Part shown: piece by piece, positions 28,841-64,000 of the stretch
Layout of the letters: each line of letters starts with the position of its first letter
How positions within the stretch are numbered: position 1 is the stretch's first letter
NCBI GenBank assembly: GCA_038210455.1
Contig: JBBQWP010000019.1
Coordinates: forward strand, 40,622-104,621
Origin: Pyrinomonadales bacterium
GTDB taxonomy: Bacteria; Acidobacteriota; Blastocatellia; Pyrinomonadales; Pyrinomonadaceae
Reading direction: 5' to 3'
DNA: 64,000 nucleotides
Notes under the pieces: generated by a model
Told to the model about the DNA's origin: nothing
Databases searched by the model: none
What the model saw: the letters and a program-made list of their open reading frames with translations, nothing else
Position numbers and translations under genes: made by a program

Positions 28841-28841
28841 T

Positions 28842-29675: not shown

Positions 29676-29692
29676 TTTAATATCGCGTCAGC

Positions 29693-40489: not shown

Positions 40490-40534
40490 GCACTCCTTAG
40501 CCGCAGTGCTTCGGCAGACGAACAACGCGCGCCT

Positions 40535-45294: not shown

Positions 45295-45349
45295 TGGCGC
45301 CGATTCAGAGGCGCTGAACAGCAAGGGTGCCGCGTAGCGGCATCGTGAA

Positions 45350-45495: not shown

Positions 45496-45525
45496 CTCAG
45501 GTCGGCGCTACGCGCCGAAAAATCT

Positions 45526-46308: not shown

Positions 46309-46334
46309 TGATTCGGGCGCGACCGTGAATAAGA

Positions 46335-46421
46335 GGTCAGTACCACCTGCGGTAGCGGGTGGGCCAAAGCCTTAACACACATTGACCAATGGCCCACCCG
46401 CTACCGCAGGTTGTACTGACC
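46335..46421. repeat. Hairpin element, family B copy 2
   Basis: ggtcagtaccacctgcggtagcgggtgggcc-(loop)-ggcccacccgctaccgcaggttgtactgacc. The arms are almost identical to 28757-28840. Confidence 0.8.
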
Positions 46422-46445
46422 TCGTTACGCGCGTCACTCGGCCTC

Positions 46446-49070: not shown

Positions 49071-49175
49071 ATCAAAAGGTGGCAGTCAGAGACCTGTCGC
49101 AAAAGCAAATCATCGGTGCCAGAACAGACTAATCTCTGACTGCTGAGGCCCGGCTTCTGATCTCTGATCTCGCTC

Positions 49176-49718: not shown

Positions 49719-49817
49719 CAGTGATTCCTCCCTATTCTTCTATCGGTAGCCAGACCTTAGTCTGTGATTAATTTTCAGAGCGAGCTCGCATCTCAAATTG
49801 AAGTCCCGGCCCCATAA

Positions 49818-52088
49818 TCACGGCTGCACGAGCACGCGAAGTTGCAATGGGTGGGCGCCTCTTTCCTTAAACCAGGTCACTCCCTCGTGCACCATGTCAA
49901 TCTCGAGAAGGTACTCGCCAGGTATTCGCGGCGCGTTTACGGTTAACGTTATCTCGACCTCGCCAGCCGGCGGTAAATCTGCTTTCATAGCGGCGCGATT
50001 ATCCTCTGCAGTCACGCCGCCGAGAAACCAGCGATTACCCAGGTTAACCTGGTACCTGAAGTCCTTGGTGCCGACAGCCGGCCAGGTTTCATCACCGAGA
50101 TTCTTGACCTTGAATCGAAGATCCGCCTTTTCGCCGGGATGCATCACCGACGGCGGATCAAGCGCTACGATTTGTTCGCGATAGACTGTAGCCGCGAAAG
50201 CTCCCTTCATCCAGGCCGACTCAAACTGGCTGCGGGCCTCTGCTGCCTGCGGGATCCGAATCTCAATGAGCATCATACCGATCCGGTCGCGTGGTGAAAA
50301 GAAGGGAAGATCCACGGGCGTTATGGTCCCGACTTCCAGCCCTCTTAGCGCGATCGCCTGCTTTGCGGCAGTTAGGTCATTCTTGAGGCAAAGCGAAAAC
50401 ATCTGACTTCCGGGCGAACTTTCGACGGCGCTAATAAACTTTCGCAATGCGTCGCGGGTGGAAAAATATTCCGGCTGGCGCACGGCGATGATCGGCGCGC
50501 GAGGGTTTAGCAACACCTCAAAACCCGTGGACTTGGGACCAGTCTCACACCACACCTGGACGCCGTCAAAAAGCGGGCGCTCTTCGTCACTCAGAAAGTT
50601 TCTAAGGGATCGGTCGCGTAATATGAGGCGCGCCTCTTGCATGTAAATGTCGGGCGCATCGATCACGGAACTGCGCGCACCCCACTCTTTCTGCCGCACA
50701 TAAAAGCAGGCAAAAAGCGCTTGCATCACCAGCGCGAGGCAGAGGATCAAGGCTGTTCCAGTCCGCCACGAAATCGTCGACCATGACCCGCTCCCGATCA
50801 CCGCCACGACGGCGAAAACCGTTACGCCCGCCAGCAGATCCTGATAAAGGCCATAGCGGCTGTAGCCCAGCGCAGTCACGCTCCAAAGCAGCGAACTCGA
50901 GATCAGAATGAGGCATAAAGTGCGCGCGCGCGGGTTGCGCCAAACGAGCACCAGCCCGGCTATCGCGACCACGAAGCCGAGCGACAGGCGGCCTGAATAA
51001 ACACCTAACTCTGAGAGGCGCTCCGGCTTAAACCAGATCAGCACGGGCCAAACCATCGTCTCCCAAAAACCGTGCGGTCCCCAGCGATTGTCCCAGCCAC
51101 CGTTCGTCGGCCAGTACGGCGACTTGAAGAGAACATTCGCGACCGGAAAGGTCGGATTGCCTGTCAGGCGGAAGATGTAGATCGTGAACGGCAGAAGTGG
51201 CGCCAGAAAGCCGGCGAGCATCAGCGATCCGGTCGTCATCATTTGCTTTGGCGTGAACCGGCATGAACCCACAGCCACCCTGTACGCGCAGACCGCAAGA
51301 ATGGGCAGCGCAACCGCGAGGTTTGTGAACTTGAACGCCGCTGCGGCTCCGAGCAGCAACGCTACGTGTACAAAATTTGCATGCCGGTTCTCGGCTTCGT
51401 CAGCGCGCAACGTAAGCAGTGTGGCCTGGAGCAAGAGCGGCAGCGTAAGCAGATCAACCATGTAGGTGCTGATCTCGAAGAGTAGATTCTCGGACAGTAC
51501 GATCAGAAGCAAGCACGCTGAACGCACCCAGGCGCGATCGAGGAATGGTCGCAGGAGCTTGTCGGTGATTTGCCCCGCCCAGACCAACGCCAGGAGGTTG
51601 ATGACAGTGCCGAGCCTGTATCCCAGAAGCAACCTGCTAATGCCGGTCAGCGTGTCAGCAGCCGGATTGAACGGTGTCGACGTAGGAAAGAAGTCGCCAG
51701 GTTCAAAGAGAGTGCCGCGCAGGGTACGCTCGGCGTGGAGCAAGTGATAGCTGAGCACGTCGAACGATCGATCCGGAAACGCGGCGCGCAGCAGATAAGC
51801 CAAAAGCAAAGGCAGCCCAACCAGCAGCCAGAAACTACGGCCAAACTTTTCCGCGCGAAATTGTTTTGTCCAAATGTAGAGGTACCAGAAAGCGATGGCG
51901 GGCGGCACGCCGAGGGCCCAGGCGAGAACATTATTGTTGACAACCCAGAGGTACTGGCGGACGAAGACGAGGGCGTAGAGAAAGAGGAGCACGTCGCCGA
52001 ATTCGACGGACGTGCGTAACCCTGCGGAGGGCTTCGTATTTTCCAAGCCTTGCTGTTCCGCCGGCGCTGTCATCGCGGTATTCAGCAC
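49818..52088 (-). CDS. Polytopic membrane protein (GT-C-like or polymerase-like, unassigned) with C-terminal beta-sandwich module
   Basis: 756 aa. About 14 hydrophobic helices, then a soluble region. The last 112 aa (49821-50156) are module copy 4. The start overlaps the stop of the upstream GT2 gene by 7 nt. Confidence 0.7.
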   Translation of the reverse strand: MLNTAMTAPAEQQGLENTKPSAGLRTSVEFGDVLLFLYALVFVRQYLWVVNNNVLAWALGVPPAIAFWYLYIWTKQFRAEKFGRSFWLLVGLPLLLAYLLRAAFPDRSFDVLSYHLLHAERTLRGTLFEPGDFFPTSTPFNPAADTLTGISRLLLGYRLGTVINLLALVWAGQITDKLLRPFLDRAWVRSACLLLIVLSENLLFEISTYMVDLLTLPLLLQATLLTLRADEAENRHANFVHVALLLGAAAAFKFTNLAVALPILAVCAYRVAVGSCRFTPKQMMTTGSLMLAGFLAPLLPFTIYIFRLTGNPTFPVANVLFKSPYWPTNGGWDNRWGPHGFWETMVWPVLIWFKPERLSELGVYSGRLSLGFVVAIAGLVLVWRNPRARTLCLILISSSLLWSVTALGYSRYGLYQDLLAGVTVFAVVAVIGSGSWSTISWRTGTALILCLALVMQALFACFYVRQKEWGARSSVIDAPDIYMQEARLILRDRSLRNFLSDEERPLFDGVQVWCETGPKSTGFEVLLNPRAPIIAVRQPEYFSTRDALRKFISAVESSPGSQMFSLCLKNDLTAAKQAIALRGLEVGTITPVDLPFFSPRDRIGMMLIEIRIPQAAEARSQFESAWMKGAFAATVYREQIVALDPPSVMHPGEKADLRFKVKNLGDETWPAVGTKDFRYQVNLGNRWFLGGVTAEDNRAAMKADLPPAGEVEITLTVNAPRIPGEYLLEIDMVHEGVTWFKERGAHPLQLRVLVQP

Positions 52089-53101
52089 CGATCCTCGTGC
52101 GGCGCCGCGGCGGTCTGTTCATGATTCGCGGCCTCATCGCCAACGCGCACACCCAGGCCGGTGCGCATTTCGTCAGTTAGCACCTGCAACTGATATTCAA
52201 ACTCTTGTGAGCGGCGCGCAATTGAATGCAGTACGAGCCCGACGGTGAGCGAGAGCAGCCCGCACAACATCAGGCCCACCGCCAGCACGGCCAGCGGCAG
52301 ACGAGCAGCGATGCCTCGATGAATCGAGTCGATGATCGAAAAGAGACCGGGAACCAGCGCCATTACAAGCAGCGCGATCCCGACGCTGCCAAAGAAGGTC
52401 AAAGGCTTATAATCACGAAAGAGGGCCAGAATCGTGTTGAGAATAAGCGCGCCGTCACGAACAAACTTGATCTTCGAATGGCTGCCCGCGGGCCTGGACG
52501 TCAACGTCGTGGGAACTTCCACAATGCGCATGCCGCGCGCAACAGCCTTGATCGTAAGTTCAGTTTCAATCTCGAATCCGCCGCCGAATAAGGGCAGTCC
52601 CTTAACAAACCTCCGGTTGAAGGCTCGATAGCCCGAAAGAATATCAGTCAGCCTGACTTTGAAGATCGAGTTTAGTAGCGCGAGTACGAGACGGTTGGCC
52701 CAGCGGTTCAGTTGGCGAAATTCACTTTGGGTGGCCACGTGCAGGCGCGAACCAACTACCATGTCGGCCTCGTCCGCAATGACCGGCGCTAACAGGCGAT
52801 GAACCTCAGCGGCCGGATAAGTGCCGTCGCCATCAACCATGATGTAGACGTCGGCTTCCACGCGGCGGAACATCGACTGCACCACGTAGCCTTTCCCCTG
52901 TCGCGGTTCGCGCAGGACGGTTGCGCCCGCTGCCAGCGCGCCGGCCACTGTGCCATCCGTCGAGTTGTTGTCGAAAACGTAAATGTGCGCCGCGGGCAAC
53001 TCGGCGCGAAAGGCCTGGACCACTTCACCAACTGTCGGCGCCTCGTTGTAGCAGGGGATTAAGACAGCGACCCTCGGCGATGTGTCTGCGGTTGATTCCA
53101 T
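52082..53101 (-). CDS. GT2 polyprenyl-phosphate glycosyltransferase (GtrB/ArnC/DPM1-like)
   Basis: VAVLIPCYNEAPTVGEVV, a DGDGTYP-type motif (VDGDGTY), and two C-terminal TM helices as in GtrB/ArnC. Confidence 0.85.
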   Translation of the reverse strand: MESTADTSPRVAVLIPCYNEAPTVGEVVQAFRAELPAAHIYVFDNNSTDGTVAGALAAGATVLREPRQGKGYVVQSMFRRVEADVYIMVDGDGTYPAAEVHRLLAPVIADEADMVVGSRLHVATQSEFRQLNRWANRLVLALLNSIFKVRLTDILSGYRAFNRRFVKGLPLFGGGFEIETELTIKAVARGMRIVEVPTTLTSRPAGSHSKIKFVRDGALILNTILALFRDYKPLTFFGSVGIALLVMALVPGLFSIIDSIHRGIAARLPLAVLAVGLMLCGLLSLTVGLVLHSIARRSQEFEYQLQVLTDEMRTGLGVRVGDEAANHEQTAAAPHEDRC

Positions 53102-53423: not shown

Positions 53424-56093
53424 ATGACAACTTCGGTCACAAACTCACCCAACACTTCGATAGGCCGCGAAACTCGAGGCGGCGGTGAAACCAGTGCGAT
53501 CCCGGCCCTGGTTAGACGACTTGGCCGGTTGAGTCTGGTGCGCGAGCTTTCGGTCATCTTTGTCTTCACTCTGTTTACGACTTTGCTGACCTGGCCCTAC
53601 GTAACCCGCATAAAGGACGTGGTCGTCGACACGGGCGATCCATATCTTATGACGTGGATTCTTTGGTGGGACTATCACCAGACATTCACCGACCCGCTGC
53701 ACCTCTTCAATGCAAACGTCTTTTATCCACTGAAATATACGCTGGCCCTCAGCGAGCACAGCTATGGATTGGCTTTGCTTCTCTTTCCGCTCTATGCGCT
53801 TGGCCTGAAGCCGCTCACGGTTCACGCCGTGGCTTTGCTGTTCGCTTTTCCGCTCACTGGCTACGCTGCTTTTCGCCTGGGCCGAACGCTCACCGGCTCG
53901 ACGGCGGTCGGATGGGTGACTGGGATTATCTTCGCGTTTGTTCCGGCCCGCTTTAATCTCATGTCCCAGGTGATCTATGTGTTCTCGCCATGGATACCGT
54001 TGTTGTTTGAAGCGCTGGTGCTATTTGTGCGCGAGCGGAGCCGGAGGCACGCGGTGTGGCTGGGCTGCGCTTTCTTTATGAGCGGTCTGACGACGATCTC
54101 CTGGTTCAGCTTTTCGCTGTTACCGTTTGTGCTGGTGGCGGCCATTTTGTTAACGCGCTACGGCCTTTGGCGCGAGCGCGCGTTCTGGCGGCGCGGCGCC
54201 GTTGCGCTCGGCGCGGCGACGCTGTTGTTACTTCCATTTTTTCTGCCGTACTTTGCCGTGGCGCGTCTGTATGGATTTAAGCGGAGCATCGAGGAGATCA
54301 AAGCCAATTCCGCCTGGCCAATACACTGGTTGTCAGTTGAGCCGCGCAACAAACTCTGGAGCCGGATGGGCGAACCCATTACCGATGGCTGGAGATTCAA
54401 ACTCTTCCCGGGTCTGCTGCCGATTGGCTTTTCGTTGACGGCGATGTTGATGCCGCGCGCTGCCCGAAAGCTGACGCTGATTCCCGATGCACAGGCGTCT
54501 CAGAAGCGATGGCTTCGTCTGCTCGACGCTTTGATCCTTTTTTCGTTTGCGCTTTCAATCCCGGCCATTGGTTTGGATCGGTCGGACGCGCTTTGGGGAG
54601 TGTTCAGTTACGCCACGTCAGAGCTGGTGCTCGGCCTGCTGATGTTGGTGGTTGTCGCGCGGCTGTGTGTCGCGTATCCGCAGTTCATGCTTACGGCCCA
54701 CGCGAACCTGATCGAGACTCTTCGTTCCCAGCGGCGCAGCGACGCCTTTTGGCTCGGACTACTTTTGACCGTCATCGGGTTCTGTTATTCGCTGGGTTGG
54801 AACTTTTTCTTCTATCGCCTCTGTTACGACTTGCTCCCAATGTTCAAGAGTATGCGCGTTGCCACTCGAGGGGCGATGATGGCCTATCTGGGTTTGGCGC
54901 TCTTGTCAGGTCTGGGGGTGAAGCGCCTGGCCGAAGTGCTGCCGCTGCGATTTCCGCGGCTGCGAGCGAGTATGGTTACTGGAGTCGCCTGCGTCTTGTT
55001 GCTGGCTGAGTTGAACGCCGCGCCTCTGAGCATCGTGCGCGGCGAGTCGCGGCCGGACGCAGTAACGCTGAGACTGAAACAGACGCCGATGCGCGGAGGG
55101 ATCGTCGAGCTTCCTGCGGGTGGGAATCTCAACTATCGCTATATGCTGCGGGCTGCCGATCATCAGAAGCCACTGATCGTCGGCACGTCGGGATTCAACT
55201 CGCCGATCGAAGATCAGATCGAGGCATTGACACGGACTGGAGCCATTCCGGCCGAGCTGATGACCATGCTCGAAGCAATTCCAACTTCGTACCTGGTGAT
55301 TTGCAACCAATCGATCATGCCTGAGCGAACGGCCGACTATGAAGCCTTCCTGGCGCGGGCAGTTGCCGGCGGTCGCTTGCGTTTCATTAATCGTTTCGAT
55401 GGACGCGACGATCTGTACGCAGTCGTGAAGAACGAACCTGAAGCGAAGAGTGAGGCGGCGCTGCCGTTCGGTCTGACGAACCAGGACTGGGCGACGAAGA
55501 TTCACGACGATCCCGTCAGTCTTTTGAGCCAACCGCTCAACTGGAGTCAAAGACTCTACCGAATCCATCTGGCAAGTTCTGGCGCCATGCCGCGTCAGAA
55601 AGAGTTCATGAGCGACCTGGAAAAGATCGGACAGGGAATCATCGTTGGATCTGAAGGAGAGGAGCAACAGGTCGCCGCAAATTTCCGTGAGTTTGTGGAA
55701 GGCTGGACAAAGCGCGAACAGTTCATCAAGTCTTTCAGTCAACTCGACGATACGCAATATGTAAATCGTCTGATCGAGAATGCCGGAATCAGCGTGGACG
55801 CGGCCAGCCGCGAGACGTTGGTAAGCGGATTATCGAGCGGCAGCGACACTCGCGCGAGTGTGTTGCTGAAGATTGTGGACGATCCGCGCTTAATCGAGAA
55901 AGAGAAGTATCGCTCACTGCTGTTGCTGCATTATTTTGGCTATTTACGCCGAAACCCCGACGATCCGCCCGACGGCGATCTGCGAGGATTCAATTTTTGG
56001 CTTCAGGATTTGGAGCGCCATCACGATGCGAGGGATCTCTCGAACGCGTTTAGAGTCACGGGTGAGTATGGTCAGTACGAAAAGAAACCGTGA
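53424..56093 (+). CDS. Polytopic membrane protein (GT-C-like N-terminal half) with large soluble C-terminal region ending in a DUF4214-like module
   Basis: 889 aa. The first loop is GDPYLMTWILWWDYHQ...NANVFYPLKYTLALSEH. Multiple TM helices. The C-terminus is LLLLHYFGYLRRNPDDPPDGDLRGFNFWLQDL. Confidence 0.7.
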   Translation: MTTSVTNSPNTSIGRETRGGGETSAIPALVRRLGRLSLVRELSVIFVFTLFTTLLTWPYVTRIKDVVVDTGDPYLMTWILWWDYHQTFTDPLHLFNANVFYPLKYTLALSEHSYGLALLLFPLYALGLKPLTVHAVALLFAFPLTGYAAFRLGRTLTGSTAVGWVTGIIFAFVPARFNLMSQVIYVFSPWIPLLFEALVLFVRERSRRHAVWLGCAFFMSGLTTISWFSFSLLPFVLVAAILLTRYGLWRERAFWRRGAVALGAATLLLLPFFLPYFAVARLYGFKRSIEEIKANSAWPIHWLSVEPRNKLWSRMGEPITDGWRFKLFPGLLPIGFSLTAMLMPRAARKLTLIPDAQASQKRWLRLLDALILFSFALSIPAIGLDRSDALWGVFSYATSELVLGLLMLVVVARLCVAYPQFMLTAHANLIETLRSQRRSDAFWLGLLLTVIGFCYSLGWNFFFYRLCYDLLPMFKSMRVATRGAMMAYLGLALLSGLGVKRLAEVLPLRFPRLRASMVTGVACVLLLAELNAAPLSIVRGESRPDAVTLRLKQTPMRGGIVELPAGGNLNYRYMLRAADHQKPLIVGTSGFNSPIEDQIEALTRTGAIPAELMTMLEAIPTSYLVICNQSIMPERTADYEAFLARAVAGGRLRFINRFDGRDDLYAVVKNEPEAKSEAALPFGLTNQDWATKIHDDPVSLLSQPLNWSQRLYRIHLASSGAMPRQKEFMSDLEKIGQGIIVGSEGEEQQVAANFREFVEGWTKREQFIKSFSQLDDTQYVNRLIENAGISVDAASRETLVSGLSSGSDTRASVLLKIVDDPRLIEKEKYRSLLLLHYFGYLRRNPDDPPDGDLRGFNFWLQDLERHHDARDLSNAFRVTGEYGQYEKKP

Positions 56094-56246: not shown

Positions 56247-57299
56247 TCATCCCGCCGCGGTGATTAGCTTTTCAACTACAGACTCCCACGAGAGGTTCAT
56301 CGACTTAAGCTTTTCCAGTCCTCGCTCACCCATTGTGCGCGCTCGCGCGCGATCGGAATAAAGCGAATCCAGAGAGTCAGCGATCGCTTGCGGGTCAGGC
56401 TCGGAGATTAGCCCAGTGCGTTCGTGCTCAACCAATTCCGCGGCGCCGCCGCCATCGCTGGGGACCACCACCGGCTTACCGGACAGCATCGCTTCCAACG
56501 TCACATAGCCGTAGTCTTCGTCAAACGGGAGATAGCCGACTCCCAGCGAGTTCGCATACAAATCAATCAGTTCATCGTCAGTGACAAAGCCTCGCATCGT
56601 GACGCGGTCGCCCACGCCGTGAGTCTTGATCAAGCTTTCGTAGTGCTTCACGTCAGCAGTGTTACCCGCCAGGATCAATTTGACCGGTGTGCGCGCCAGG
56701 TGCATCGCTTCGATCAGGAGCTCCTGACGCTTCTGTGGTTCCAGACGGCTGGGATAAAAAATGTAATCACCCTGCTCGCCCGTTTTCAGTCGGCCGGCCA
56801 GTGGCGGCGGATGATACAGCGGTTCGCTGGCGATGTTGTTGTAGCGCTTTAGTCTTTCGGCGACGGCTATTGAATTGGCAAAGACTTTACGGGCCTCTGG
56901 TATGAAGCGTTCGTCGCAGTGCTTAACCCATTCACGAACGCGAACGCCTTCGGGGTAAGTCGAGAGATCGTCGAACGGCGTGCCCCAAAGATTATAAGCC
57001 GCACGATGCTGGTGCAGGATCCACAGCACCTTTCTTTCGTGCGCGACCAGATACGCGGGAAATTTCATGCCGATTACGAGGTCGATCGGCTGTCCGTTGG
57101 CAGAGCTTAGATCCAGCATGCGCCACGCCATCGCACTGCGCATGATCTCAGTCGGCGGATACCATTTGAATGGGAGAGCGACGATCTCTGCTTTGTAACC
57201 GGCGGCAGACAGCGCGCGACGCAAGCCTTCGACGTGCGACTCAGCGCCACCCGTGGTGAAGGGGACTTGCGTGGTGCAGATGAGAATGTTTCGGATCAT
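56247..57299 (-). CDS. GT4-family glycosyltransferase (GT-B fold)
   Basis: 350 aa. EPQKRQELLIEAM and the E..YGYVTLEAMLSGKPVV motif of the Glycos_transf_1 domain. Confidence 0.85.
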   Translation of the reverse strand: MIRNILICTTQVPFTTGGAESHVEGLRRALSAAGYKAEIVALPFKWYPPTEIMRSAMAWRMLDLSSANGQPIDLVIGMKFPAYLVAHERKVLWILHQHRAAYNLWGTPFDDLSTYPEGVRVREWVKHCDERFIPEARKVFANSIAVAERLKRYNNIASEPLYHPPPLAGRLKTGEQGDYIFYPSRLEPQKRQELLIEAMHLARTPVKLILAGNTADVKHYESLIKTHGVGDRVTMRGFVTDDELIDLYANSLGVGYLPFDEDYGYVTLEAMLSGKPVVVPSDGGGAAELVEHERTGLISEPDPQAIADSLDSLYSDRARARTMGERGLEKLKSMNLSWESVVEKLITAAG

Positions 57300-57318
57300 A
57301 GGAAACAGAGATCAGAGG

Positions 57319-58692
57319 TCAGAGGTCAGAGGTTAGAGGGTTTTTCTGACCTCCGATCCCTGACTTCTGACCTCTGATTTCTATATTGCACACAGCTATA
57401 GACAATTCCCGATCATCACGCGTCGCGTCGTTTGTCGGACGTGCTTGCCAGGTGCGATCGGCGCGAATCTCCAGCTCGAACTCTCCTTCAGCAGCTAAAG
57501 AGTTGGGAACCGCCACGCGCAGGTTTAGCCACGAGTGACTGAAGAGCGAGAAGTGCGAAAGCCGGACGCCGTTCAGCACCATCTCAAGCGTGACCGGACG
57601 TGCCCGCAGATCGGGTAGGTGCGTAGTCAGATCGAGGGCGATCTCTGAAACCTCGGCAACCTGAAACTTTACCCGGCCGCGCTCACCCATCCACCGGGCT
57701 ACCGGCGGCAGCAGGTTTGGTTCGTACCAGCCATCGTCAAAGACAACCTGGCTATTTCGATCGAGACACGGCAGCAAGTCTGCGGTCTCACGGCCTGCCG
57801 AGAGACCACTGCGATCGCGATGCTCGTTATAAAAAGGTCCGAGTAACGCGTCCGACGCCTTCAGAAAAACGTACAGACCCGCCTTGGGCAGTGGAATGCC
57901 GAGATCCGACACTCTGCTGAATACATAACCCATCGCCATATCGAACGCGCGACGTTCTTTGAAAGACAGGCCCCGAAGATATTCAAGAAAGTCTGCTTCA
58001 AACTTCAGGCCATACCCATCTGCCTGCTTCAGAAATTCTTCGCTACTCAGGCAGAGGGTGTAGCGCGGTTCAAAGGCGACGTGCTGAAAAACTTTGAGAA
58101 AGCGCGTGGCGTGCTCCTGCTCCTCTTCCAGCCCGACGTGCCCATCGACTTCGATAAAGCGCCGCAGTTCTTCGGGACTCATCTCTGGGTAATCTTTTCG
58201 CGAGCTGCGGTCCGTGCACTCGATGCCATGCATGGTTACGCCGCCGGGACGAAGGACGCGCTTTACTTCGGCCAGCACGGCGTCCTTGTCTCCAAACTCT
58301 ACGTGACCCAGAACGTCAAGACTCACGACGTAGTCGAAACTGCCATCGTCGAAGGGCAGACGCGAAAGGTTTGCCGTCAGAGCCAGATCGTAACCATTGC
58401 GCTTCGCCGCCAGCACGCATTCGGGAGACACATCAACGCCGGTGAGAACTACATGCTTACGCTTCAAGAGCGCGAGCATCCCAGCGCCGCAACCCAGATC
58501 GAGCACCGACGATCCGGCGCGCACATTGTCATAGACCCACATGGTGCGAGCAAATCGCATATCAAAGCGATCCAGCGGCTTGAAGTAACGCGCGTCCAAC
58601 ACCTCGTCGGAAACGAACTTGGTGCGATAAAACTCAGCCAGGTCGTTGATCCCGGCGCGCGTGTAGAGATCGTTTTTCTGCGAGTCTGACAT
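57319..58692 (-). CDS. Class I SAM-dependent methyltransferase with extra C-terminal beta-rich domain
   Basis: Motif I SVLDLGCGAGMLALL, then FDYVVSLDVLGHV and LRPGGV. The last ~20 codons lie in the hairpin 57309-57381. Confidence 0.8.
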   Translation of the reverse strand: MSDSQKNDLYTRAGINDLAEFYRTKFVSDEVLDARYFKPLDRFDMRFARTMWVYDNVRAGSSVLDLGCGAGMLALLKRKHVVLTGVDVSPECVLAAKRNGYDLALTANLSRLPFDDGSFDYVVSLDVLGHVEFGDKDAVLAEVKRVLRPGGVTMHGIECTDRSSRKDYPEMSPEELRRFIEVDGHVGLEEEQEHATRFLKVFQHVAFEPRYTLCLSSEEFLKQADGYGLKFEADFLEYLRGLSFKERRAFDMAMGYVFSRVSDLGIPLPKAGLYVFLKASDALLGPFYNEHRDRSGLSAGRETADLLPCLDRNSQVVFDDGWYEPNLLPPVARWMGERGRVKFQVAEVSEIALDLTTHLPDLRARPVTLEMVLNGVRLSHFSLFSHSWLNLRVAVPNSLAAEGEFELEIRADRTWQARPTNDATRDDRELSIAVCNIEIRGQKSGIGGQKNPLTSDL

Positions 58693-58704
58693 GGGACGAG
58701 ATAA

Positions 58705-58767
58705 GTGGCACAGACTTTAGTCTGTGATTACCTGGCAGGACCAATCACAGACTAAAGTCTGTGCCAC
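58705..58767. repeat. Double palindrome, family D copy 2
   Basis: gtggcacagactttagtctgtga-ttacctggcaggaccaa-tcacagactaaagtctgtgccac. It fills the spacer between the coiled-coil gene and the methyltransferase. Confidence 0.75.
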
Positions 58768-58773
58768 TGACTT

Positions 58774-59724
58774 TCACTTTTCGCCGTTAGATAGTGACTT
58801 TTCCAGATTATCCAGCCGCGACTCAATGACGCGCCGGCCGCGGTCTGCAGCCACTGACGCTTCGCTCGCTTCGAGCGAGAGCTGCTTGAAACAGACACGT
58901 TGCTCTTCACGCAGTTGCTGATCGCTCTCGCGCAGCTCGCCGGCAAGCCCCGCAAGTTGCGAGGTCATTGCCATGCGTGCCGCATCAATTTCTTCCCTGA
59001 TCGCCGCAGCGGACTCAGTCGCCCGCGTTTCCATGGCTGCGCTGCGCGCTTGCGAGTCGGCATCGCTCTTTCTGATCTCAGTGGTCAGGACTTCGATGCT
59101 CGCTCGCAAGGCAATCAACTCTCGATCACGGAGGTCGAGCTCTTCGCGCCAGCTTTCACTTTCTTTCCGTAGCTCAGCCCCAAGCTCAGCCCCAAGCTCG
59201 CGAAGCTCGCTAAGCTCAGCCCGAAGCTCGCGAAGCTCAGCCCGAAGCTCAGCGCGAAGCTCGCGAAGCTCAGCGCGAAGCTCAGCGCGAAGCTCAGCGC
59301 GAAGCTCAGGAAGCTCAGCGCGAAGCTCAGCCCGAATGCCGGCAATTTCCTGCCCGTATGCCGAAAGCGCGTGCAGAGTCTCGGCCAGCGCATGATGGAC
59401 GGCCGAGTTGAAGTTGACTTGCTCCCACGTAAACCAATGGCTCATGGATTTGAGCCGGGCTTTGATCCATAGCTCGAGGCGCGCCGTGCCGCCCTTTCGA
59501 TTACTGTACATTGGCGGCAGCCGGTCCCAGGCGCGCGAGGTGGTAGTTAAGTGAGCAGACATCCGGATGAGCGATTCACCATTTCCGTTTTCCGCATTAG
59601 CGTGCGCTAGAGAAGTTTTGGCCGTCTCACTCTGAACGGGCGTTACCGGCACGCCACCCGGATCGTGATCGGCGCGGATGCGCTCGCGAATTTCGTTGAG
59701 GATGCTTTCTACGTCATTAATCAT
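58774..59724 (-). CDS. Coiled-coil protein with in-frame AELR/ELR tandem repeats
   Basis: 316 aa. The N-terminus is MINDVESILNEIRERIRADH. The central run is AELRAELPELRAELRAELRAELRELRAELRAELRELRAELSELRELGAELGAELR. The rest is heptad-like and charged. Confidence 0.75.
   Translation of the reverse strand: MINDVESILNEIRERIRADHDPGGVPVTPVQSETAKTSLAHANAENGNGESLIRMSAHLTTTSRAWDRLPPMYSNRKGGTARLELWIKARLKSMSHWFTWEQVNFNSAVHHALAETLHALSAYGQEIAGIRAELRAELPELRAELRAELRAELRELRAELRAELRELRAELSELRELGAELGAELRKESESWREELDLRDRELIALRASIEVLTTEIRKSDADSQARSAAMETRATESAAAIREEIDAARMAMTSQLAGLAGELRESDQQLREEQRVCFKQLSLEASEASVAADRGRRVIESRLDNLEKSLSNGEK
59171..59333. repeat. Imperfect tandem DNA repeat (12-nt AGCTCAGCGCGA units mixed with 9-nt units) inside the coiled-coil CDS
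   Basis: Read directly: agctcagcccca agctcagcccca agctcgcga agctcgcta agctcagcccga agctcgcga agctcagcccga agctcagcgcga agctcgcga agctcagcgcga agctcagcgcga agctcagcgcga agctcagga agctcagcgcga agctcagcccga. Confidence 0.85.
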
Positions 59725-59726
59725 AG

Positions 59727-61025
59727 CTAGACTGTTTGGGGTAACTCTTCCTGGACATTCAACGCCGCTGCGCTGGGTATATGCCGGGCGCTTACAGTTG
59801 CGTTGAGATTGGCGATGCCTTCGGTCACCACTTCGCTGGCGACCCGGAAAAAACGCGCGCCGTCAATCCAGTCGAAGGCTTCACCATTACGGTTATGGAC
59901 CGCGCAGGTGATCGAGTAATCGTCCACGCCCAACCAGCAGTTGAAAGAAAAAATAACTTCGAGCAGATCGCCACGGCCCACTGCGCCAAACTCGATCTGC
60001 TGCTCTTTGGTGTTGGTGCCGTAGGCGCTGATGCCGTGGCGATTGCGAATTAGAAAACCGACTATCGGATCGTCAAGATCAGTATTGACCCGGGCTAGTA
60101 TCCGCATCGTCAAAGGCTCTCCGGTCTCGACCGTCTCCACCCGGCGCTGCGCCGCATCAGCCAAATCGGCCGCCAGGATTTCGGCGCTGCCATCGCCATG
60201 ACGATAAGTGTAGCTCAGCGGCTCTAAACTTTCGTCGTCGGGAATCGCAGGTTCGCCGGCAGCGGCGGCGGAGTCAGCCAGGAAGGCGCGTTCGCGCGCC
60301 ATGATGATCTTCTGATAGTGATTGAGCACGTCAACCGGGCGGCCATCCGCCGCGATTCTGCCGTCGTTCAACAGGATCGCCCGCGAGCAGAGGGCCCGCA
60401 CCGCCCCCAGGTCATGCGACACAAACAGCACGGTGGTGCCGGACTCCTGCAGATCTTTGATGCGGCGCAGGCAACGATGCTGGAAGACTGCATCGCCAAC
60501 GGCGAGCGCCTCATCGATGACCAGGATGTCAGGTTCGACGCTCGACGCGATCGCGAAGGCTAAACGCACGTACATGCCGCTGGAATAAGTCTTAACCGGC
60601 TGATAAATGAACTGGCCAATTTCGGCGAACCGTTCGATCTGTGGGAGCAGCGCGTCGGTGGCTCGCCGCGTCAGTCCCAGCAGAGAGGCGTTCATGTAAG
60701 TGTTTTCGACCCCGGTAAACTCCGGATCGAAACCGGCTCCCAGCTCCAGCAGCGCGGCTATCCGGCCATGATGCCAAACGCTTCCATGGGTGGGTTCCAG
60801 AGTGCCCGAAATTATCTGTAAGAGGGTCGACTTGCCGCAACCGTTGGGGCCGACGATGCCGACCGTCACGCCCTGTTCGATCTCAAAGCTTACTTCCTGG
60901 AGGGCCCAGAATTCTTTGTGCCGCCGCATGCGGCCGCGGGTCAGCGACTCTTTCAAGCGATCGCCGGGCCGCGCGTAGGTCCGGTATTGTTTCGCCACGT
61001 TTTCTGCGCGGAGGACCGTAGTCAT
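59727..61025 (-). CDS. Polysaccharide ABC-transporter ATP-binding protein (Wzt/TagH-like) with C-terminal beta-sandwich extension
   Basis: Walker A GPNGCGKST, signature YSSGMYVRLAFA, Walker B ILVIDEAL. A C-terminal extension of about 190 aa is arranged like the Wzt carbohydrate-binding domain. The start is trimmed to ATG 61025. Confidence 0.85.
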   Translation of the reverse strand: MTTVLRAENVAKQYRTYARPGDRLKESLTRGRMRRHKEFWALQEVSFEIEQGVTVGIVGPNGCGKSTLLQIISGTLEPTHGSVWHHGRIAALLELGAGFDPEFTGVENTYMNASLLGLTRRATDALLPQIERFAEIGQFIYQPVKTYSSGMYVRLAFAIASSVEPDILVIDEALAVGDAVFQHRCLRRIKDLQESGTTVLFVSHDLGAVRALCSRAILLNDGRIAADGRPVDVLNHYQKIIMARERAFLADSAAAAGEPAIPDDESLEPLSYTYRHGDGSAEILAADLADAAQRRVETVETGEPLTMRILARVNTDLDDPIVGFLIRNRHGISAYGTNTKEQQIEFGAVGRGDLLEVIFSFNCWLGVDDYSITCAVHNRNGEAFDWIDGARFFRVASEVVTEGIANLNATVSARHIPSAAALNVQEELPQTV

Positions 61026-61203
61026 GCGGTGAAATGTAGCAGATGTCGGGAGAGGGAAGCCACTCTTGTTCGTAGATGCGGAGCCGGAAAGAACACAGTG
61101 GGCAGTGAGCGGTGGGCCGCAAGACAAAGGTGTGAGAGGTTTTGACCCTCTCACACCTTTTAACCTTGACCTTTTTTATTTTGACCTGGGCCTTCCACTA
61201 ACT

Positions 61204-64000
61204 TTACGATCCGAACCTTTGCCGGTACTCGCTTGAGCTAATGAACGCCTTCGTCATATCGGAATTGGCAAAGTTGCCTTGGAAAGTGTTGAGTTTGGCC
61301 AACCAAAAGTCAAAGCCTGCCTGGTCCGGATCGCGGCGCAGGTAGCCGAAGTACTCCATCAGCACAAACGCGCGATTGAACTCAGTGTCAGAAAACTGCT
61401 GCGACTCAGCAATCTTGCGAAGCACCGTGGCACGCGTTTCCGTGGCGGCGTTCAGACCGTTAACGAGCGAGTCGCGGAAGGCTTGCGTGTTCGCCGGGAA
61501 ATTACCCCGCACCTCGCCGCCGCCGAACTGGGTGGTGTGGAAATTGATGTAAGCCCGGCCAGCCAGGATGTTGCTTAATTGTGCGGCCAGAGTCGTGGCA
61601 TTCCCCTCGGGTGCGTCCCACTTGCCGCTGATCGTGCCGCCGACGCCGGCCGCAAAGGGAGTATTCACGACGTCATTCGGATTGTTATCGTTTAAGGGCG
61701 CGCCAAAGAATCCCCAGACGACGGGGCCGTTGACGCCCGGTGCAACCGTTGGGCCCGCGTGGATATGCGCCGCGGCGAGGTTGTCGCTGGTCGTAGCCGA
61801 TTGTGCGCCAGTGAAGTCAATATTGTTGACTGTGGCGGTAAACGTCATCGCGTCCTGGGCGGCGTTGAGCGAGAACGTCGCCGTTCCATACGAGCCTGGC
61901 CGGCCGGTTGGATTCGTCGGCGCGGTTTCCTGCGTGTTGGTAAGATTCACGACGAAGCGGCCGGGCGATATTCCGGCGTTACCCAGCAACGCGTCGACGT
62001 ATTGCGGATTGGTCAGGGCGCTCGGATAGGCGGACACGAACTCAGGCCGGTTAATGAAGTCGCTAAAGTAAGCCTGTTTGTTAGCTTCCAGTTGCGCGTC
62101 GAAAGCCGGCGTGCCGAAGACAAGATCCTTCTGCAGCGCCTGGGTATCTTTCTCGAACACGCCATAGAGCGGGACTGCGTTGAAGGCTGCCTTGTTCGCC
62201 AGGTATGAAAGCATCCCTGTCTTCTGGAACTCGATGGCCAAGAAGAATGCGGCACTGACGTTAACGCGTTTTGCTGCGATGCAATTCGCGTCCACGCCGC
62301 ACGAGGTAATCTCATTCACCCAAAAGTTAAACCCTGACGGATCAGGCTCTCGATTGAGAAAATCAAGGTACTGCTGGCGGACGTAGAACTGGGCGCTGTC
62401 AATCGGATTAGTCGCTGGCGGCGCGGCAGGAATCGCCACCGGCTCAGAGTAAATGAAGTCGTCCATCACGACTACGTCTGTGAATGGAGGGTTGTCATTA
62501 GGGCCGAGAACCGAATTCCCGCTAATAATTCTGACGCGAGCGATCGGCCGATTATTGATTGAGACTCCGAAGAATGAGAGGCTCCCGCTGCCGGACTGAG
62601 ATGGCACAACCTGTTCTGTGATGAACGCGCCACTAGCGTCAAAAAACTGCATCCGGGTGTCATTGGAATTGTCGACATCCGTAAAGATGGCGCCGAAACT
62701 GGCAACTGTAGCGGGCGTAGTGGTCCCGGGAACAAAAAAGTTTAGGTCTATGACATTGCTGTCAGACGCGGTGAAGAGCCGCTGGGGGCTGAACTGTTGG
62801 AAAGTTGCCGAGTAGGTCGGGTTGATGTTCCCGAAATTCTGCGCGGCCGGTTGACCTGCGCCGCCGTCGGTGGTCGCACCGCTGACTTGAAACAGGTTGG
62901 TGGGAGTCGCAAAAACTACGCCTCGAGGACTGTTAGCGTTAAAGAAATTTGCCGGCAGATTATTAGGCGCGGAAAAAATAGGGGGGACTCCGTCCCAGTT
63001 AATTTCGCGGCGCACACCTCCGAACGAGCCATTGGCTCCGGGAACGGTTCCGCCACCGATATCGGTCCGAAATTGATCTCGCGCGGGCATGATCGCCGCG
63101 GGATTGGCTCCGACACCCGACCGCGCCACGATTATCGGCGCTACCACATCGTCATCCACGATTTTTACTTTCGCCGTGTTCGGAGATCCCAATCCCACTC
63201 CCGCGCCGGTTGGATTCGACAGAGCGAGATTGAGCGTTTCATCTCCCTCGGGGAAATTGTCGTTAACGATCAGAATCCGCATCGTCTTGCTGGTTTCGCC
63301 CGGATTAAACGTAACCTTGCTGAGGGCAATCTCATAATCGCTTTTCTGCGTTGCATGGCCGCCCACCGAGAGGTTGTTGTCGTAAGTTGAAACATTTACC
63401 GTAGCTGTACCGGACGCGTCGCCGCCGCGTACGACCGTGATGTCGATGTGACCGCTGCCCTCGCCAATCGTGAAATCATCGGTGGCGAACTGCAACAGCG
63501 AAGTGGCGGTGGCTGTGGTCGGCCTAAGCCTACCGAAGAGTCCATGTTCCTCGGCGGCGAGGCCGGCAGAGAAATAAAGCGTGTTCGGGTCGCCGCCGGC
63601 GCCGCCATTGCCGAAGGTAAGCGCCCACAGCCCATCATTGACCACATTGTTATTGGACTCGTCCTTGAGTGTGCCGAGGAAGGCGCCCGTCGTCGCGCTG
63701 AAGGCGTTGATTGTTCCGTTGGGAGAAAAATTACCGACGAGGAGCGCCTGAGGGAAAATGCCGAAAGAGGCAGGCGCAATCGCCAGGCCCCACGGAGCGT
63801 CGAGCGCACCATTGTTAATCCCGAAAGTTAGATCGCGAATGCCGTCCCGGTCGAACCTGCGCACGAACCCCAATCCCACCCCGTTCAGGGGAACTCCCGT
63901 CATTGGATTAGTCTTCGCGTAGGTCACGTAGAGCAATCCGCCGAGGTTCTGGATGTTGTGGACGCTGAAGCCCGCCGGAATTGTTGGATCAGCGAAAGCT
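61204..64000 (-). CDS. Giant multidomain exoprotein (TIGR03118-like propeller region, Calx-beta, CHRD-like, two DUF4214-like modules); N-terminus beyond window
   Basis: The frame stays open to base 64000. Propeller-type: LYVTYAK...LDAPWGLAIAP..FG...LLVGNF..G.INAF...GLWALTFGNG...LYFSAG...HGLFGRL. Calx-beta-like: FTIGEGSGHIDITVVRGGDASG...FNPGETSKTMRILIVNDNFPEGDE. CHRD-like: AAHIHAGP. DUF4214-like: YLDFLNREPDPSGFNFW and YFGYLRRDPDQAGFDFW. Confidence 0.75.
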   Translation of the reverse strand, partial: AFADPTIPAGFSVHNIQNLGGLLYVTYAKTNPMTGVPLNGVGLGFVRRFDRDGIRDLTFGINNGALDAPWGLAIAPASFGIFPQALLVGNFSPNGTINAFSATTGAFLGTLKDESNNNVVNDGLWALTFGNGGAGGDPNTLYFSAGLAAEEHGLFGRLRPTTATATSLLQFATDDFTIGEGSGHIDITVVRGGDASGTATVNVSTYDNNLSVGGHATQKSDYEIALSKVTFNPGETSKTMRILIVNDNFPEGDETLNLALSNPTGAGVGLGSPNTAKVKIVDDDVVAPIIVARSGVGANPAAIMPARDQFRTDIGGGTVPGANGSFGGVRREINWDGVPPIFSAPNNLPANFFNANSPRGVVFATPTNLFQVSGATTDGGAGQPAAQNFGNINPTYSATFQQFSPQRLFTASDSNVIDLNFFVPGTTTPATVASFGAIFTDVDNSNDTRMQFFDASGAFITEQVVPSQSGSGSLSFFGVSINNRPIARVRIISGNSVLGPNDNPPFTDVVVMDDFIYSEPVAIPAAPPATNPIDSAQFYVRQQYLDFLNREPDPSGFNFWVNEITSCGVDANCIAAKRVNVSAAFFLAIEFQKTGMLSYLANKAAFNAVPLYGVFEKDTQALQKDLVFGTPAFDAQLEANKQAYFSDFINRPEFVSAYPSALTNPQYVDALLGNAGISPGRFVVNLTNTQETAPTNPTGRPGSYGTATFSLNAAQDAMTFTATVNNIDFTGAQSATTSDNLAAAHIHAGPTVAPGVNGPVVWGFFGAPLNDNNPNDVVNTPFAAGVGGTISGKWDAPEGNATTLAAQLSNILAGRAYINFHTTQFGGGEVRGNFPANTQAFRDSLVNGLNAATETRATVLRKIAESQQFSDTEFNRAFVLMEYFGYLRRDPDQAGFDFWLAKLNTFQGNFANSDMTKAFISSSEYRQRFGS

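What the first reader, a model, noticed from the sequence alone, without database searches (positions are those of the whole stretch)
57319..61025. Wzt-type ATPase followed by a coiled-coil protein and a methyltransferase: a possible split WbdD-like chain terminator and ruler
Seen: three consecutive minus-strand genes. They encode an ABC ATPase with a ~190-aa C-terminal extension (59727-61025), a 316-aa coiled-coil protein (58774-59724) and a SAM methyltransferase with an extra C-terminal domain (57319-58692). Established: in the E. coli O9a-type pathway, the WbdD methyltransferase/kinase caps the growing glycan. Its coiled coil sets chain length, and the Wzt C-terminal domain recognises the cap before export. 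Inference: here the ruler and the capping enzyme may be separate polypeptides. The N-terminus (ILNEIRERIRA) resembles the start of many proteins annotated as O-antigen chain-terminating methyltransferases, as far as I recall.
Basis: partly seen in the sequence, partly recalled or inferred. Interest (0 to 1): 0.65.

Follow-up and report, generated by a model that had tools for sequence, protein, structure and literature searches.

The report
Split glycan chain-capping and ruler module
Next to a sugar-polymer export ATPase that reads a chemical end-cap, this soil acidobacterium encodes a stand-alone long helical protein and a separate methyltransferase, which together probably do what one fused "cap and measure" enzyme does in E. 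coli; this is a new layout of a known mechanism and has not been tested.

Summary
Three co-directional minus-strand genes encode:
- a Wzt ATPase with a genuine Wzt_C carbohydrate-binding domain (Pfam E=3.5e-32);
- a 316-aa Ala/Glu/Leu/Arg-rich helical protein with no catalytic domain;
- a class I SAM methyltransferase with a C-terminal beta-sandwich.

A GT4 glycosyltransferase gene follows. The order wzt, coiled-coil gene, methyltransferase, GT4 holds in essentially all 85 related loci, which are Blastocatellia/Pyrinomonadaceae, phylum Acidobacteriota.

The helical protein has a conserved N-domain and a conserved C-terminal motif. Between them lies a middle of 72-240 residues. Here that middle is lengthened by a unique in-frame 12-nt (AELR) tandem repeat.

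The four residues that hold the methyl cap in the Aquifex Wzt domain are conserved here.

wzm is not in the window. It lies divergently upstream of wzt in 19 related loci, and one relative has wzm unlinked from wzt.

In one relative, a single 817-aa methyltransferase/coiled-coil/methyltransferase protein fills the same slot.

Best reading: a split methyl-capping terminator plus ruler or scaffold, a new variant of the WbdD-type strategy. No interaction between the helical protein and the methyltransferase, and no ruler function, has been demonstrated. The products are not WbdD homologues.

The parts
59727..61025 (-). wzt: ABC-transporter ATPase (NBD res 1-245) with a C-terminal carbohydrate-binding domain
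   Evidence: Pfam ABC_tran plus Wzt_C. PDB 8dku/7k2t A. aeolicus Wzt at E=2e-81. Walker A GPNGCGKST, signature YSSGM, Walker B ILVIDE and H-loop SHD can be read in the sequence.
59808..60206 (-). Wzt_C cap-binding domain (res 274-406). Putative methyl pocket: L325, T373, A375, W386.
   Evidence: PF14524 at E=3.5e-32. Matches 6o14/8dky at E about 4e-5 and 2r5o at E=0.0066. The pocket residues align with A. aeolicus L300/T346/A348/W362 (PMC9445017). L and W are invariant in 84 loci.
58774..59724 (-). Stand-alone 316-aa helical (coiled-coil-like) protein with no catalytic domain and no TM segment: the proposed ruler or scaffold
   Evidence: The family is 150-362 aa and restricted to Blastocatellia.
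59320..59724 (-). Conserved N-terminal domain of the helical protein (res 1-135): N-terminal helix VESILNEIRERIRA, a variable linker, then RAWDRLPP...RLELWIKARLK...WFTWEQVNFNSAVHHAL
   Evidence: Invariant columns in alignment A2. phmmer against 1.84 billion representatives finds 247 clusters, almost all stand-alone.
59167..59336 (-). In-frame tandem repeat (period 12 nt, 15.4 copies; also scored as 33 nt = 11 aa) encoding (AELR)n / AELRAELRELR. It inserts about 50-60 aa into the variable middle.
   Evidence: TRF. It is an insertion relative to P0001/P0005, which are 80-81% identical. It is unique among 267 family members.
58777..58905 (-). Conserved C-terminal motif of the helical protein (res 274-316: EEQRVCFKQLSLEASEA...DRGRRVIESRL): a candidate docking end
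   Evidence: Nearly invariant columns in A2. The docking role is inference.
58704..58768 (.). Perfect 26-bp inverted repeat (13-nt loop) in the 81-nt gap between the coiled-coil and methyltransferase genes: a REP-like repeated palindrome
   Evidence: A second copy lies at 23960-24019.
57319..58692 (-). Class I SAM-dependent methyltransferase (Rossmann core res 56-210, helical lid 217-263) with a C-terminal beta-sandwich (about res 310-440): the proposed chain-capping enzyme
   Evidence: Pfam. AF2 model: pLDDT 69.8, pTM 0.70. Foldseek: lidded small-molecule and sugar O-methyltransferases. Homologues are 52-90% identical with the same architecture.
57373..57765 (-). C-terminal beta-sandwich of the methyltransferase (conserved motifs FDDGWYEPNLLPPVARWMG and DRELSIAVCNIE), possibly glycan-binding
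   Evidence: Eight strands in the model. Invariant columns in A1. No Pfam hit. No profile similarity to Wzt_C or to the locus's Ig-like domains.
56247..57299 (-). GT4 glycosyltransferase (350 aa), the fourth conserved gene of the module and a candidate polymerase component
   Evidence: Glycos_transf_1 at E=1.5e-28. Present downstream of the methyltransferase in 64 loci at 67-89% identity.
61126..61160 (.). 14-bp perfect hairpin between the upstream CHRD/Calx-beta gene and wzt. It probably ends the upstream transcript, so wzt would start its own unit.
   Evidence: The role is inferred.

Best explanation
wzt, the coiled-coil gene (CC), the methyltransferase gene (MT) and the GT4 gene form the core of an ABC-transporter-dependent glycan pathway that uses a chain-terminating cap.

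Proposed sequence of events:
1. A polyprenol-linked glycan is built in the cytoplasm by the GT4 and other transferases of the locus.
2. The 457-aa methyltransferase adds a methyl group to the non-reducing end. This stops elongation.
3. The Wzt C-terminal domain binds that methylated terminus.
4. Wzm/Wzt then export the polymer. wzm lies outside the window.

The 316-aa helical protein is proposed to be the non-catalytic half of a split terminator. It would be an oligomeric coiled coil. One conserved end would sit at the membrane or polymerase. The other conserved end would hold the methyltransferase. Only chains that span the helix would then get capped, so the helix acts as a ruler or scaffold. 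Its length evolves by in-frame repeat expansion.

Shown: domain identities, invariant synteny, conserved ends with a variable middle, and a conserved methyl pocket. Inferred: capping by this particular methyltransferase, CC-MT binding, and the ruler function.
For: - The Wzt_C domain is well above cutoff and related to solved cap-binding domains.
- The A. aeolicus methyl-pocket residues are conserved: L325 and W386 are invariant, A375 is present in 81 of 84 loci, and T373 is T or S.
- wzt lies upstream of CC in 84/85 loci, MT follows in 75 and GT4 in 64. The shortfalls are mostly contig ends. The wzt stop and CC start are 2 nt apart here, 3 nt apart in L001 and L002, 7 nt apart in L003, and overlap by 8 nt in L004.
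- CC has a conserved N-domain and C-motif with a spacing of 72-240 aa, median 135, and 182 here. That is about 11-36 nm if it is one continuous helix.
- The middle region changes by lineage-specific tandem repeats: AELR here, and heptad repeats EARSAAI and DAQRSQL in others.
- CC evolves much faster (29-57% identity) than Wzt, MT or GT4 (52-89%).
- In L086 the slot between wzt and GT4 holds one 817-aa FkbM-MT / DUF4214 / coiled-coil / Methyltransf_23 protein. This is the canonical fused layout.
- A singleton CC-MT fusion, P0212, sits in the same slot.
- The literature reports that every characterised system of this kind has a coiled-coil protein as its marker, and that coil length sets chain length (PMC11231755).
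- Wzm (ABC2_membrane, E=1.9e-18) is divergently adjacent to wzt in 19 related loci, with a Wzy_C ligase-like gene beside it.
Against: - No physical or computational evidence of CC-MT or CC-GT4 binding was obtained.
- Coiled-coil propensity was not computed with a dedicated predictor. A simple periodicity analysis gave only a weak signal at about 3.6 residues.
- CC shows no clear amphipathic membrane helix.
- The locus contains two further methyltransferases (45385-46308, and the GT-MT fusion at 46446-49070), either of which could make the cap.
- The P0212 fusion is a single MAG contig. It joins CC to the second methyltransferase type rather than to the window-type MT, so it is probably a deletion or an assembly artefact.
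- The L086 fused protein has no significant sequence similarity to the CC family.
- wzm was not found in the window, nor within 10 kb in the 29 loci that share the window's CHRD-gene arrangement.
- The glycan and its cap are chemically unknown.
Confidence: 0.5

Rival explanations
1. The helical protein is a scaffold or adaptor without a measuring role. It would tether the soluble methyltransferase and/or GT4 to Wzt or to the membrane, or couple synthesis to export. Its length variation would be neutral drift of a low-constraint helix.
For: - Tight coupling to wzt, with 2-3 nt gaps or overlaps.
- The middle region is poorly conserved and tolerates arbitrary repeats.
- No length correlation can be tested without glycan data.
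Against: - In characterised systems the coiled coil does set chain length (PMC11231755).
- Conserved ends separated by a rod are the defining geometry of a spacer.
Confidence: 0.2
2. The 457-aa methyltransferase is not the terminator. It would methylate internal residues or a non-glycan acceptor. The cap read by Wzt would be made by another enzyme in the locus, such as the 874-aa GT-MT-Ig fusion or the 307-aa methyltransferase. The helical protein would then partner that other enzyme or GT4.
For: - There are three methyltransferases in the locus.
- The best structural matches of the MT are phosphoethanolamine N-methyltransferases and small-molecule O-methyltransferases, not WbdD.
- The only CC fusion seen joins CC to the MT307-like type.
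Against: - Only the 457-aa MT is invariably adjacent to CC and wzt, in 75 loci. The other methyltransferases are sporadic: 4 and 8 loci within the flanks examined.
- It carries an extra beta-sandwich that could hold a glycan.
Confidence: 0.15
3. The helical protein has a function unrelated to glycan assembly, for example cytoskeletal or regulatory, and merely sits in the operon.
For: It has no recognisable domain. Automatic annotations in source databases call relatives 'chromosome segregation ATPase', 'EnvC' or 'FlhF'.
Against: - It lies next to wzt in 84/85 loci across about 159 species-level genomes, and was seen in no other genomic context.
- The automatic names only reflect coiled-coil composition.
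Confidence: 0.05
4. This rival concerns the product, not the mechanism. The exported polymer may not be an LPS O-antigen. It may be a glycan later transferred to a protein (S-layer-like or secreted CHRD/Calx-beta protein) or to another acceptor, and decorated outside the cytoplasm.
For: - A CHRD/Calx-beta/DUF4214 protein gene lies directly upstream of wzt here and in 29 loci.
- The locus holds an AglJ-like polyprenyl-phosphate glycosyltransferase and several large GT-C-like membrane proteins: YfhO, PMT_2, and the 889-aa and 756-aa proteins.
- By my background knowledge, Wzy_C enzymes, one of which lies next to wzm in relatives, include both WaaL ligases and O-oligosaccharyltransferases.
Against: - JGI names the Wzm relatives 'lipopolysaccharide transport system permease'. 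This is an automatic annotation only.
- Nothing in the data discriminates between the two products.
Confidence: 0.3

Closest known systems
E. coli O9a / K. pneumoniae O3 WbdD-WbdA-Wzm/Wzt system, and the methyl-only WbdD of K. pneumoniae O5
   Same: - An ABC-transporter-dependent pathway with a Wzt that has a cap-binding C-domain (2r5o matches at E=0.0066).
- A methyltransferase-based terminator.
- An extended coiled coil as the marker of the strategy.
- Gene order wzt, terminator, GT4-family transferase. The E. coli order is from memory; the rest is from PMC11231755.
   Different: - In WbdD the catalytic domains and the coiled coil are one polypeptide. Here they are two genes.
- There is no kinase domain.
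- The methyltransferase is not a detectable WbdD homologue.
- The helical protein is unrelated in sequence to anything in the PDB.
- The methyltransferase carries an extra beta-sandwich.
K. pneumoniae O4 and O7 assembly systems (PMC11231755)
   Same: - They show that polymerase and terminator modules can be distributed over separate proteins.
- O7 ORF6 has an Ig-like CBM next to its methyltransferase-kinase, as the beta-sandwich sits next to the methyltransferase here.
   Different: [quoted passage not shown] Here the coiled-coil protein has no enzyme attached.
Aquifex aeolicus WzmWzt and its carbohydrate-binding domain (PDB 6o14, 8dky, 8dku; PMC9445017)
   Same: - It is the closest solved Wzt: NBD E=2e-81, CBD E about 4e-5.
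- The pocket that holds the 3-O-methyl group (L300, T346, A348, W362) is conserved here as L325, T373, A375, W386.
   Different: The paper contains no occurrence of 'methyltransferase' or 'coiled', so it offers no terminator or ruler for comparison. The ligand of the window protein is unknown.
The 817-aa FkbM-MT / DUF4214 / coiled-coil / Methyltransf_23 protein in related locus L086 (uncharacterised)
   Same: It occupies exactly the slot between wzt and GT4 in a related Blastocatellia genome, and wzm is divergently adjacent. It has a helix, LDIERLKAEIREAAHRR, that resembles the VESILNEIRERIRA start of the window protein.
   Different: It is a single polypeptide with two methyltransferase domains. 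It has no significant HMM similarity to the stand-alone family.

Membership tests
Wzt (O-antigen/glycan ABC exporter ATPase with cap-binding domain) | ABC nucleotide-binding domain of the Wzt/TagH type | tested here: met
   ABC_tran at E=3.8e-21. A. aeolicus Wzt 8dku at E=2e-81 and TagH/TarH at E=1e-57 to 1e-58. The motifs are intact in the sequence.
Wzt (O-antigen/glycan ABC exporter ATPase with cap-binding domain) | C-terminal Wzt_C beta-sandwich carbohydrate-binding domain | tested here: met
   PF14524 at 111.8 bits against a cutoff of 30.4. Matches the solved CBDs 6o14, 8dky and 2r5o. The fold itself was not modelled here.
Wzt (O-antigen/glycan ABC exporter ATPase with cap-binding domain) | Partner Wzm (ABC-2 permease) in the same genome | tested here: inconclusive
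   No ABC2_membrane ORF was found in the 64-kb window. It is present divergently upstream of wzt in 19/85 related loci. It is unlinked from wzt in L088. The source genome beyond the window could not be read.
Wzt (O-antigen/glycan ABC exporter ATPase with cap-binding domain) | Binding of a modified (methylated) glycan terminus | not testable with these tools
   Only indirect evidence: the pocket residues of the A. aeolicus CBD are conserved.
WbdD (O9a/O8-type chain terminator with ruler) | Sequence or structural homology of the catalytic domain to WbdD | tested here: not met
   WbdD is not among the 60 PDB sequence matches listed, out of 69 with E<=0.01, nor among the top 50 Foldseek matches. 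Only the generic class I fold is shared.
WbdD (O9a/O8-type chain terminator with ruler) | Kinase domain (O9a type) | tested here: not met
   No kinase family was found in any of the three proteins.
WbdD (O9a/O8-type chain terminator with ruler) | Coiled coil and catalytic domain in one polypeptide | tested here: not met
   They are separate ORFs with an 81-nt gap here, and separate in 75 related loci.
Coiled-coil ruler terminators in general (WbdD, WbbB, Kp O4 ORF7, Kp O7 ORF6) | Extended coiled coil encoded in an ABC-transporter-dependent glycan locus | tested here: inconclusive
   The locus context is met. Composition and sub-threshold coiled-coil family hits fit. No dedicated predictor or structure model was run on this protein.
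Coiled-coil ruler terminators in general (WbdD, WbbB, Kp O4 ORF7, Kp O7 ORF6) | Coil length determines glycan chain length | not testable with these tools
   Natural length variation of 72-240 aa is documented. No glycan data exist.
Class I SAM-dependent methyltransferase | Rossmann-type SAM-binding core with a GxGxG motif | tested here: met
   Methyltransf_11 at E=6.4e-19. VLDLGCGAG is present. The model and Foldseek matches have probability 1.00.

The most novel reading that the evidence does not exclude
A catalytically inert, stand-alone molecular ruler. This would be a family, confined to Blastocatellia, of helical proteins that dock a separate capping methyltransferase at one end and the polymerase or membrane at the other. 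The rod length would be retuned between close relatives by in-frame tandem-repeat expansion. Here that is a 12-nt AELR repeat adding about 9 nm compared with relatives that are 80% identical. The result would be strain-level adjustment of surface-glycan chain length without touching any enzyme.
Probability: 0.3. Interest if true: 0.7.

Novelty: new variant of a known kind. Interest (0 to 1): 0.5.

Why it matters
In every characterised ABC-transporter-dependent system with capped glycans, the ruler and the terminating enzyme are one protein. Their roles are therefore hard to separate.

A natural system with the rod as its own gene would allow ruler length, docking and catalysis to be changed independently. 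This family already offers more than 150 species-level variants, spanning a three-fold range of rod length.

It would also extend the cap-and-measure strategy from Proteobacteria to Acidobacteriota, abundant soil bacteria whose surface glycans are essentially uncharacterised.

Tried and rejected
1. A single-sequence AlphaFold model of the methyltransferase was useless (pLDDT 35). The run with a 41-sequence alignment gave a usable model.
2. Foldseek on the whole model returned only methyltransferase-core matches, so the beta-sandwich could not be classified.
3. Pfam at E<=10 on the methyltransferase C-terminus found nothing. hmmsearch and hhalign of that domain against the Wzt CBD and the locus's N_BRCA1_IG-like domains gave probability <=1.4%, so a shared origin is rejected at sequence level.
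4. The CC N-domain had no meaningful PDB match and no plasmid tblastn match.
5. The CC family HMM against the fused 817-aa L086 protein was not significant.
6. The P0212 CC-MT fusion, taken as Rosetta-stone evidence, was downgraded. It is a singleton cluster on one MAG contig, and its methyltransferase half is the second, MT307-like enzyme, which is stand-alone in L016 and L019.
7. The exact window Wzt sequence is not on record, so the source contig could not be extended.
8. Among the top 120 Wzm homologues, none lay on the long contigs that carry the closest CC loci, so Wzm could not be located in the window's own clade.
9. The promoter and terminator scan was at chance level.
10. Hydrophobic-moment and periodicity analysis gave no clear membrane helix and only a weak helical periodicity of about 3.6 residues.

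Full report
**1. The observation**

The three minus-strand ORFs are present exactly as described.

*Wzt ATPase.* The ATPase is best started at the ATG at 61025, giving 432 aa. Homologues are 431-451 aa.
- It has an ABC_tran domain and a Wzt_C domain (PF14524, res 274-406, E=3.5e-32, 111.8 bits against a 30.4 cutoff).
- Its nucleotide-binding half matches the solved Aquifex aeolicus Wzt at E=2e-81.
- Its C-terminal 182 residues match the isolated A. aeolicus carbohydrate-binding domain (6o14, 8dky, E about 4e-5) and the E. coli O9a Wzt C-domain (2r5o, E=0.0066).

*Helical protein (CC).* The second gene starts 2 nt after the wzt stop.
- It encodes 316 aa with no family above threshold in Pfam or NCBIfam.
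- Residues 111-300 are 65% Ala/Glu/Leu/Arg with one proline.
- It has no transmembrane segment.

*Methyltransferase (MT).* The third gene encodes a class I SAM methyltransferase, Methyltransf_11, E=6e-19.
- An alignment-based AlphaFold model (pLDDT 69.8, pTM 0.70) shows a Rossmann core, a helical lid and an eight-strand beta-sandwich at about res 310-440.

A GT4 glycosyltransferase gene (56247-57299) follows directly.

**2. Taxonomy and conservation**

The helical protein belongs to a family with more than 1400 members in the 90%-clustered protein collection. The best 120 are all stand-alone proteins of 209-348 aa from Blastocatellia/Pyrinomonadaceae.

An exhaustive phmmer search of its first 135 residues against 1.84 billion representatives found only 247 clusters. 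Among the 150 listed, all but one are 105-362 aa.

A scan of one genome per GTDB species found 159 loci. The 80 that were kept are nearly all labelled as Acidobacteriota, mostly Blastocatellia: Pyrinomonadaceae or Chloracidobacterium.

I ran tblastn with the window's proteins against 85 fetched loci:

| Gene | Loci with the gene | Identity to window |
|---|---|---|
| wzt (upstream of CC) | 84 (the exception is a truncated contig) | mostly 61-85% (54% on one truncated contig) |
| CC | 85 | 29-57% |
| MT (downstream) | 75 | 52-84% |
| GT4 | 64 | 67-89% |

Missing cases are mostly contig ends. In L014 a 145-aa ORF lies between CC and the contig end. The divergent methyltransferases still keep the C-terminal beta-sandwich.

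**3. Anatomy of the helical protein**

Alignment of 32 diverse members shows three parts.
- A conserved N-terminal domain. It has the helix VESILNEIRERVRA, then a variable linker, then RAWDRLPP..SNR.G..ARLELWIKARLK...WFTWEQVNFN.AVHHAL.
- A conserved C-terminal motif, EEQRVCFKQLSLEASEA..DRGRR.IE.RL.
- A poorly conserved middle of variable length.

The spacing between the two conserved motifs runs from 72 to 240 residues. The median is 135 and the window protein has 182. As a continuous helix this corresponds to about 11-36 nm, and 27 nm here.

In the window the middle contains a 12-nt tandem repeat (15.4 copies; also scored at 33 nt = 11 residues) encoding AELRAELRELR....
- It is an insertion absent from relatives that are 80-81% identical, P0001 and P0005, 254 and 251 aa.
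- It is unique among 267 family members.
- Other members carry their own repeats, including exact heptad triplets EARSAAI and DAQRSQL.

So the rod length changes by in-frame repeat expansion while both ends are held constant.

**4. Is a methyl cap plausible?**

The A. aeolicus study reports that its O antigen is capped with 3-O-methyl mannose/rhamnose. The methyl group sits in a pocket formed by Leu300, Thr346, Ala348 and Trp362 (PMC9445017).

In the HMMER alignment these positions correspond to L325, T373, A375 and W386 of the window Wzt. I derived this mapping from the printed alignment. It implies a uniform +1 offset between chain index and paper numbering.

Across 84 related loci:
- L325 and W386 are invariant.
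- A375 is Ala in 81.
- T373 is Thr or Ser.

This is indirect support for recognition of a methylated terminus.

**5. Wzm**

No ABC-2 permease is encoded in the window. Pfam was run on essentially all large ORFs, and tblastn with a relative's Wzm found nothing in the window.

In 19 of the 85 loci a 274-310-aa ORF lies divergently upstream of wzt. It has ABC2_membrane (E=1.9e-18 and 4e-15).

These 19 loci do not overlap with the 29 loci that, like the window, have a CHRD/Calx-beta/DUF4214 gene upstream of wzt.

Contexts retrieved through Wzm homologues show the likely ancestral layout: GT4, MT, CC, wzt on one strand, then wzm diverging, followed by a Wzy_C ligase-like gene, a TPR protein, thiE and thiD.

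In L088 wzm sits in that same neighbourhood with no wzt nearby. So wzm and wzt can be unlinked in this lineage. The window's own wzm remains unseen.

**6. Fused counterparts**

*L086.* Its Wzm is 77% identical to the L052 Wzm that I used as query. The slot between wzt and GT4 is filled by one 817-aa protein containing:
- an FkbM-type methyltransferase (res 68-189);
- the helix LDIERLKAEIREAAHRR;
- a DUF4214 domain;
- a Gln/Ala-rich helical stretch (about res 470-600);
- a Methyltransf_23 domain (res 628-776).

This is the canonical one-polypeptide layout, in the position occupied here by CC plus MT. However, the CC family HMM does not match it significantly. The equivalence is therefore positional, not demonstrated homology.

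*P0212.* This second fusion (635 aa) has the CC N-domain, a coil, a methyltransferase and an Ig-like domain. It also sits between wzt and GT4.
- It is a singleton on one MAG contig.
- Its methyltransferase half is the MT307-like enzyme that is a separate gene after the MT in L016 and L019.
- It therefore looks like a deletion or an assembly artefact, and is weak evidence.

**7. Comparison with known systems**

A 2024 analysis of Klebsiella O4 and O7 (PMC11231755) makes these statements:
- coil length and polymerase recruitment set chain length;
- a CBM next to a terminator had been seen only in O7 ORF6.

The window module works like these systems in outline but differs in three ways.
- The coil is a separate protein with no catalytic domain.
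- The methyltransferase is not a detectable WbdD relative. WbdD does not appear among the listed PDB sequence or fold matches. The best matches are phosphoethanolamine N-methyltransferases and the sugar O-methyltransferases RebM and AtmM.
- There is no kinase.

It should not be filed as WbdD. It is best described as a split functional analogue. I found no paper describing this family or any Wzt system in Acidobacteria.

**8. Verdict**

The three genes, plus GT4, form a conserved module of a capped-glycan ABC export pathway. I hold that with high confidence.

That the helical protein is the ruler or scaffold for the neighbouring methyltransferase is the best available explanation, at about 0.5, but it remains inference. 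The main rivals are:
- a scaffold with no measuring role;
- capping by another methyltransferase in the locus;
- a glycan destined for something other than LPS.

Novelty: a new variant of a known kind. Interest: moderate.

Noticed in passing
window 58704-58768 and 23960-24019: A perfect 26-bp inverted repeat (GTGGCACAGACTTTAGTCTGTGATT arms, 13-nt loop) fills the gap between the coiled-coil and methyltransferase genes. A near-identical palindrome (1-2 mismatches) occurs 35 kb away. No matches are expected by chance. It looks like a REP-like dispersed palindromic element.
   Followed up: partly
window 57306-57382: A palindrome built of heptamer repeats (CAGAGGT/TCTGACC) spans the methyltransferase stop and the GT4 start. 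It appears to encode the last 15-20 residues of the window methyltransferase (…GQKSGIGGQKNPLTSDL), a tail that most homologues lack.
   Followed up: partly
window 61204-63936 (minus strand); L001, L002, L004 and 26 other loci: A 910-aa protein with TIGR03118, Calx-beta, CHRD and DUF4214 domains lies directly upstream of wzt here and in 29/85 related loci. L002 has three such paralogues in a row. These loci never show wzm within 10 kb. The protein could be a secreted or surface protein linked to the glycan.
   Followed up: partly
window 36956-53101: The glycan locus continues for about 24 kb. It contains an AglJ-like GT2 polyprenyl-phosphate glycosyltransferase (52082-53101), large multi-pass membrane proteins (YfhO-like 42316-45294; PMT_2 40535-42328; unassigned 53424-56093 and 49818-52088), a GT1+methyltransferase+Ig fusion (46446-49070) and a further methyltransferase (45385-46308). 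This suggests extracytoplasmic decoration of the exported polymer.
   Followed up: no
window 49818-52088, 49176-49718, 46446-49070, 36956-38860: An Ig-like domain (N_BRCA1_IG, PF16158, just below the Pfam cutoff at E=1e-3 to 6e-6) recurs at the C-terminus of four different proteins of the locus. It also occurs in the methyltransferase half of P0212. It may be a shared glycan-binding or interaction module.
   Followed up: partly
L086 6055-8508 (minus strand): An 817-aa protein has FkbM methyltransferase, DUF4214, a Gln/Ala-rich helical region and a Methyltransf_23 domain. It replaces the coiled-coil and methyltransferase pair between wzt and GT4 in a related genome.
   Followed up: partly
L087 10907-12436; L089 12035-13585; L086 10922-12391: A Wzy_C (O-antigen ligase family) protein of about 490-516 aa, with a PDZ domain in L087 and a weak PDZ hit in L086, lies next to wzm in relatives. 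A PDZ domain on a ligase-like enzyme is, to my knowledge, unusual.
   Followed up: no
L014 5546-5983: A 145-aa ORF lies between the coiled-coil gene and the contig end, where the methyltransferase gene would be expected. It is Cys/His-rich, and from the sequence alone I guessed it might be nuclease-like; this was not tested.
   Followed up: no
window 24093-32551: A run of lysine-biosynthesis genes: aspartokinase, M20 peptidase (DapE-like), DapB, DapA, DapD-like succinyltransferase, an aminotransferase and aspartate-semialdehyde dehydrogenase. It is ordinary housekeeping context, unrelated to the finding.
   Followed up: no
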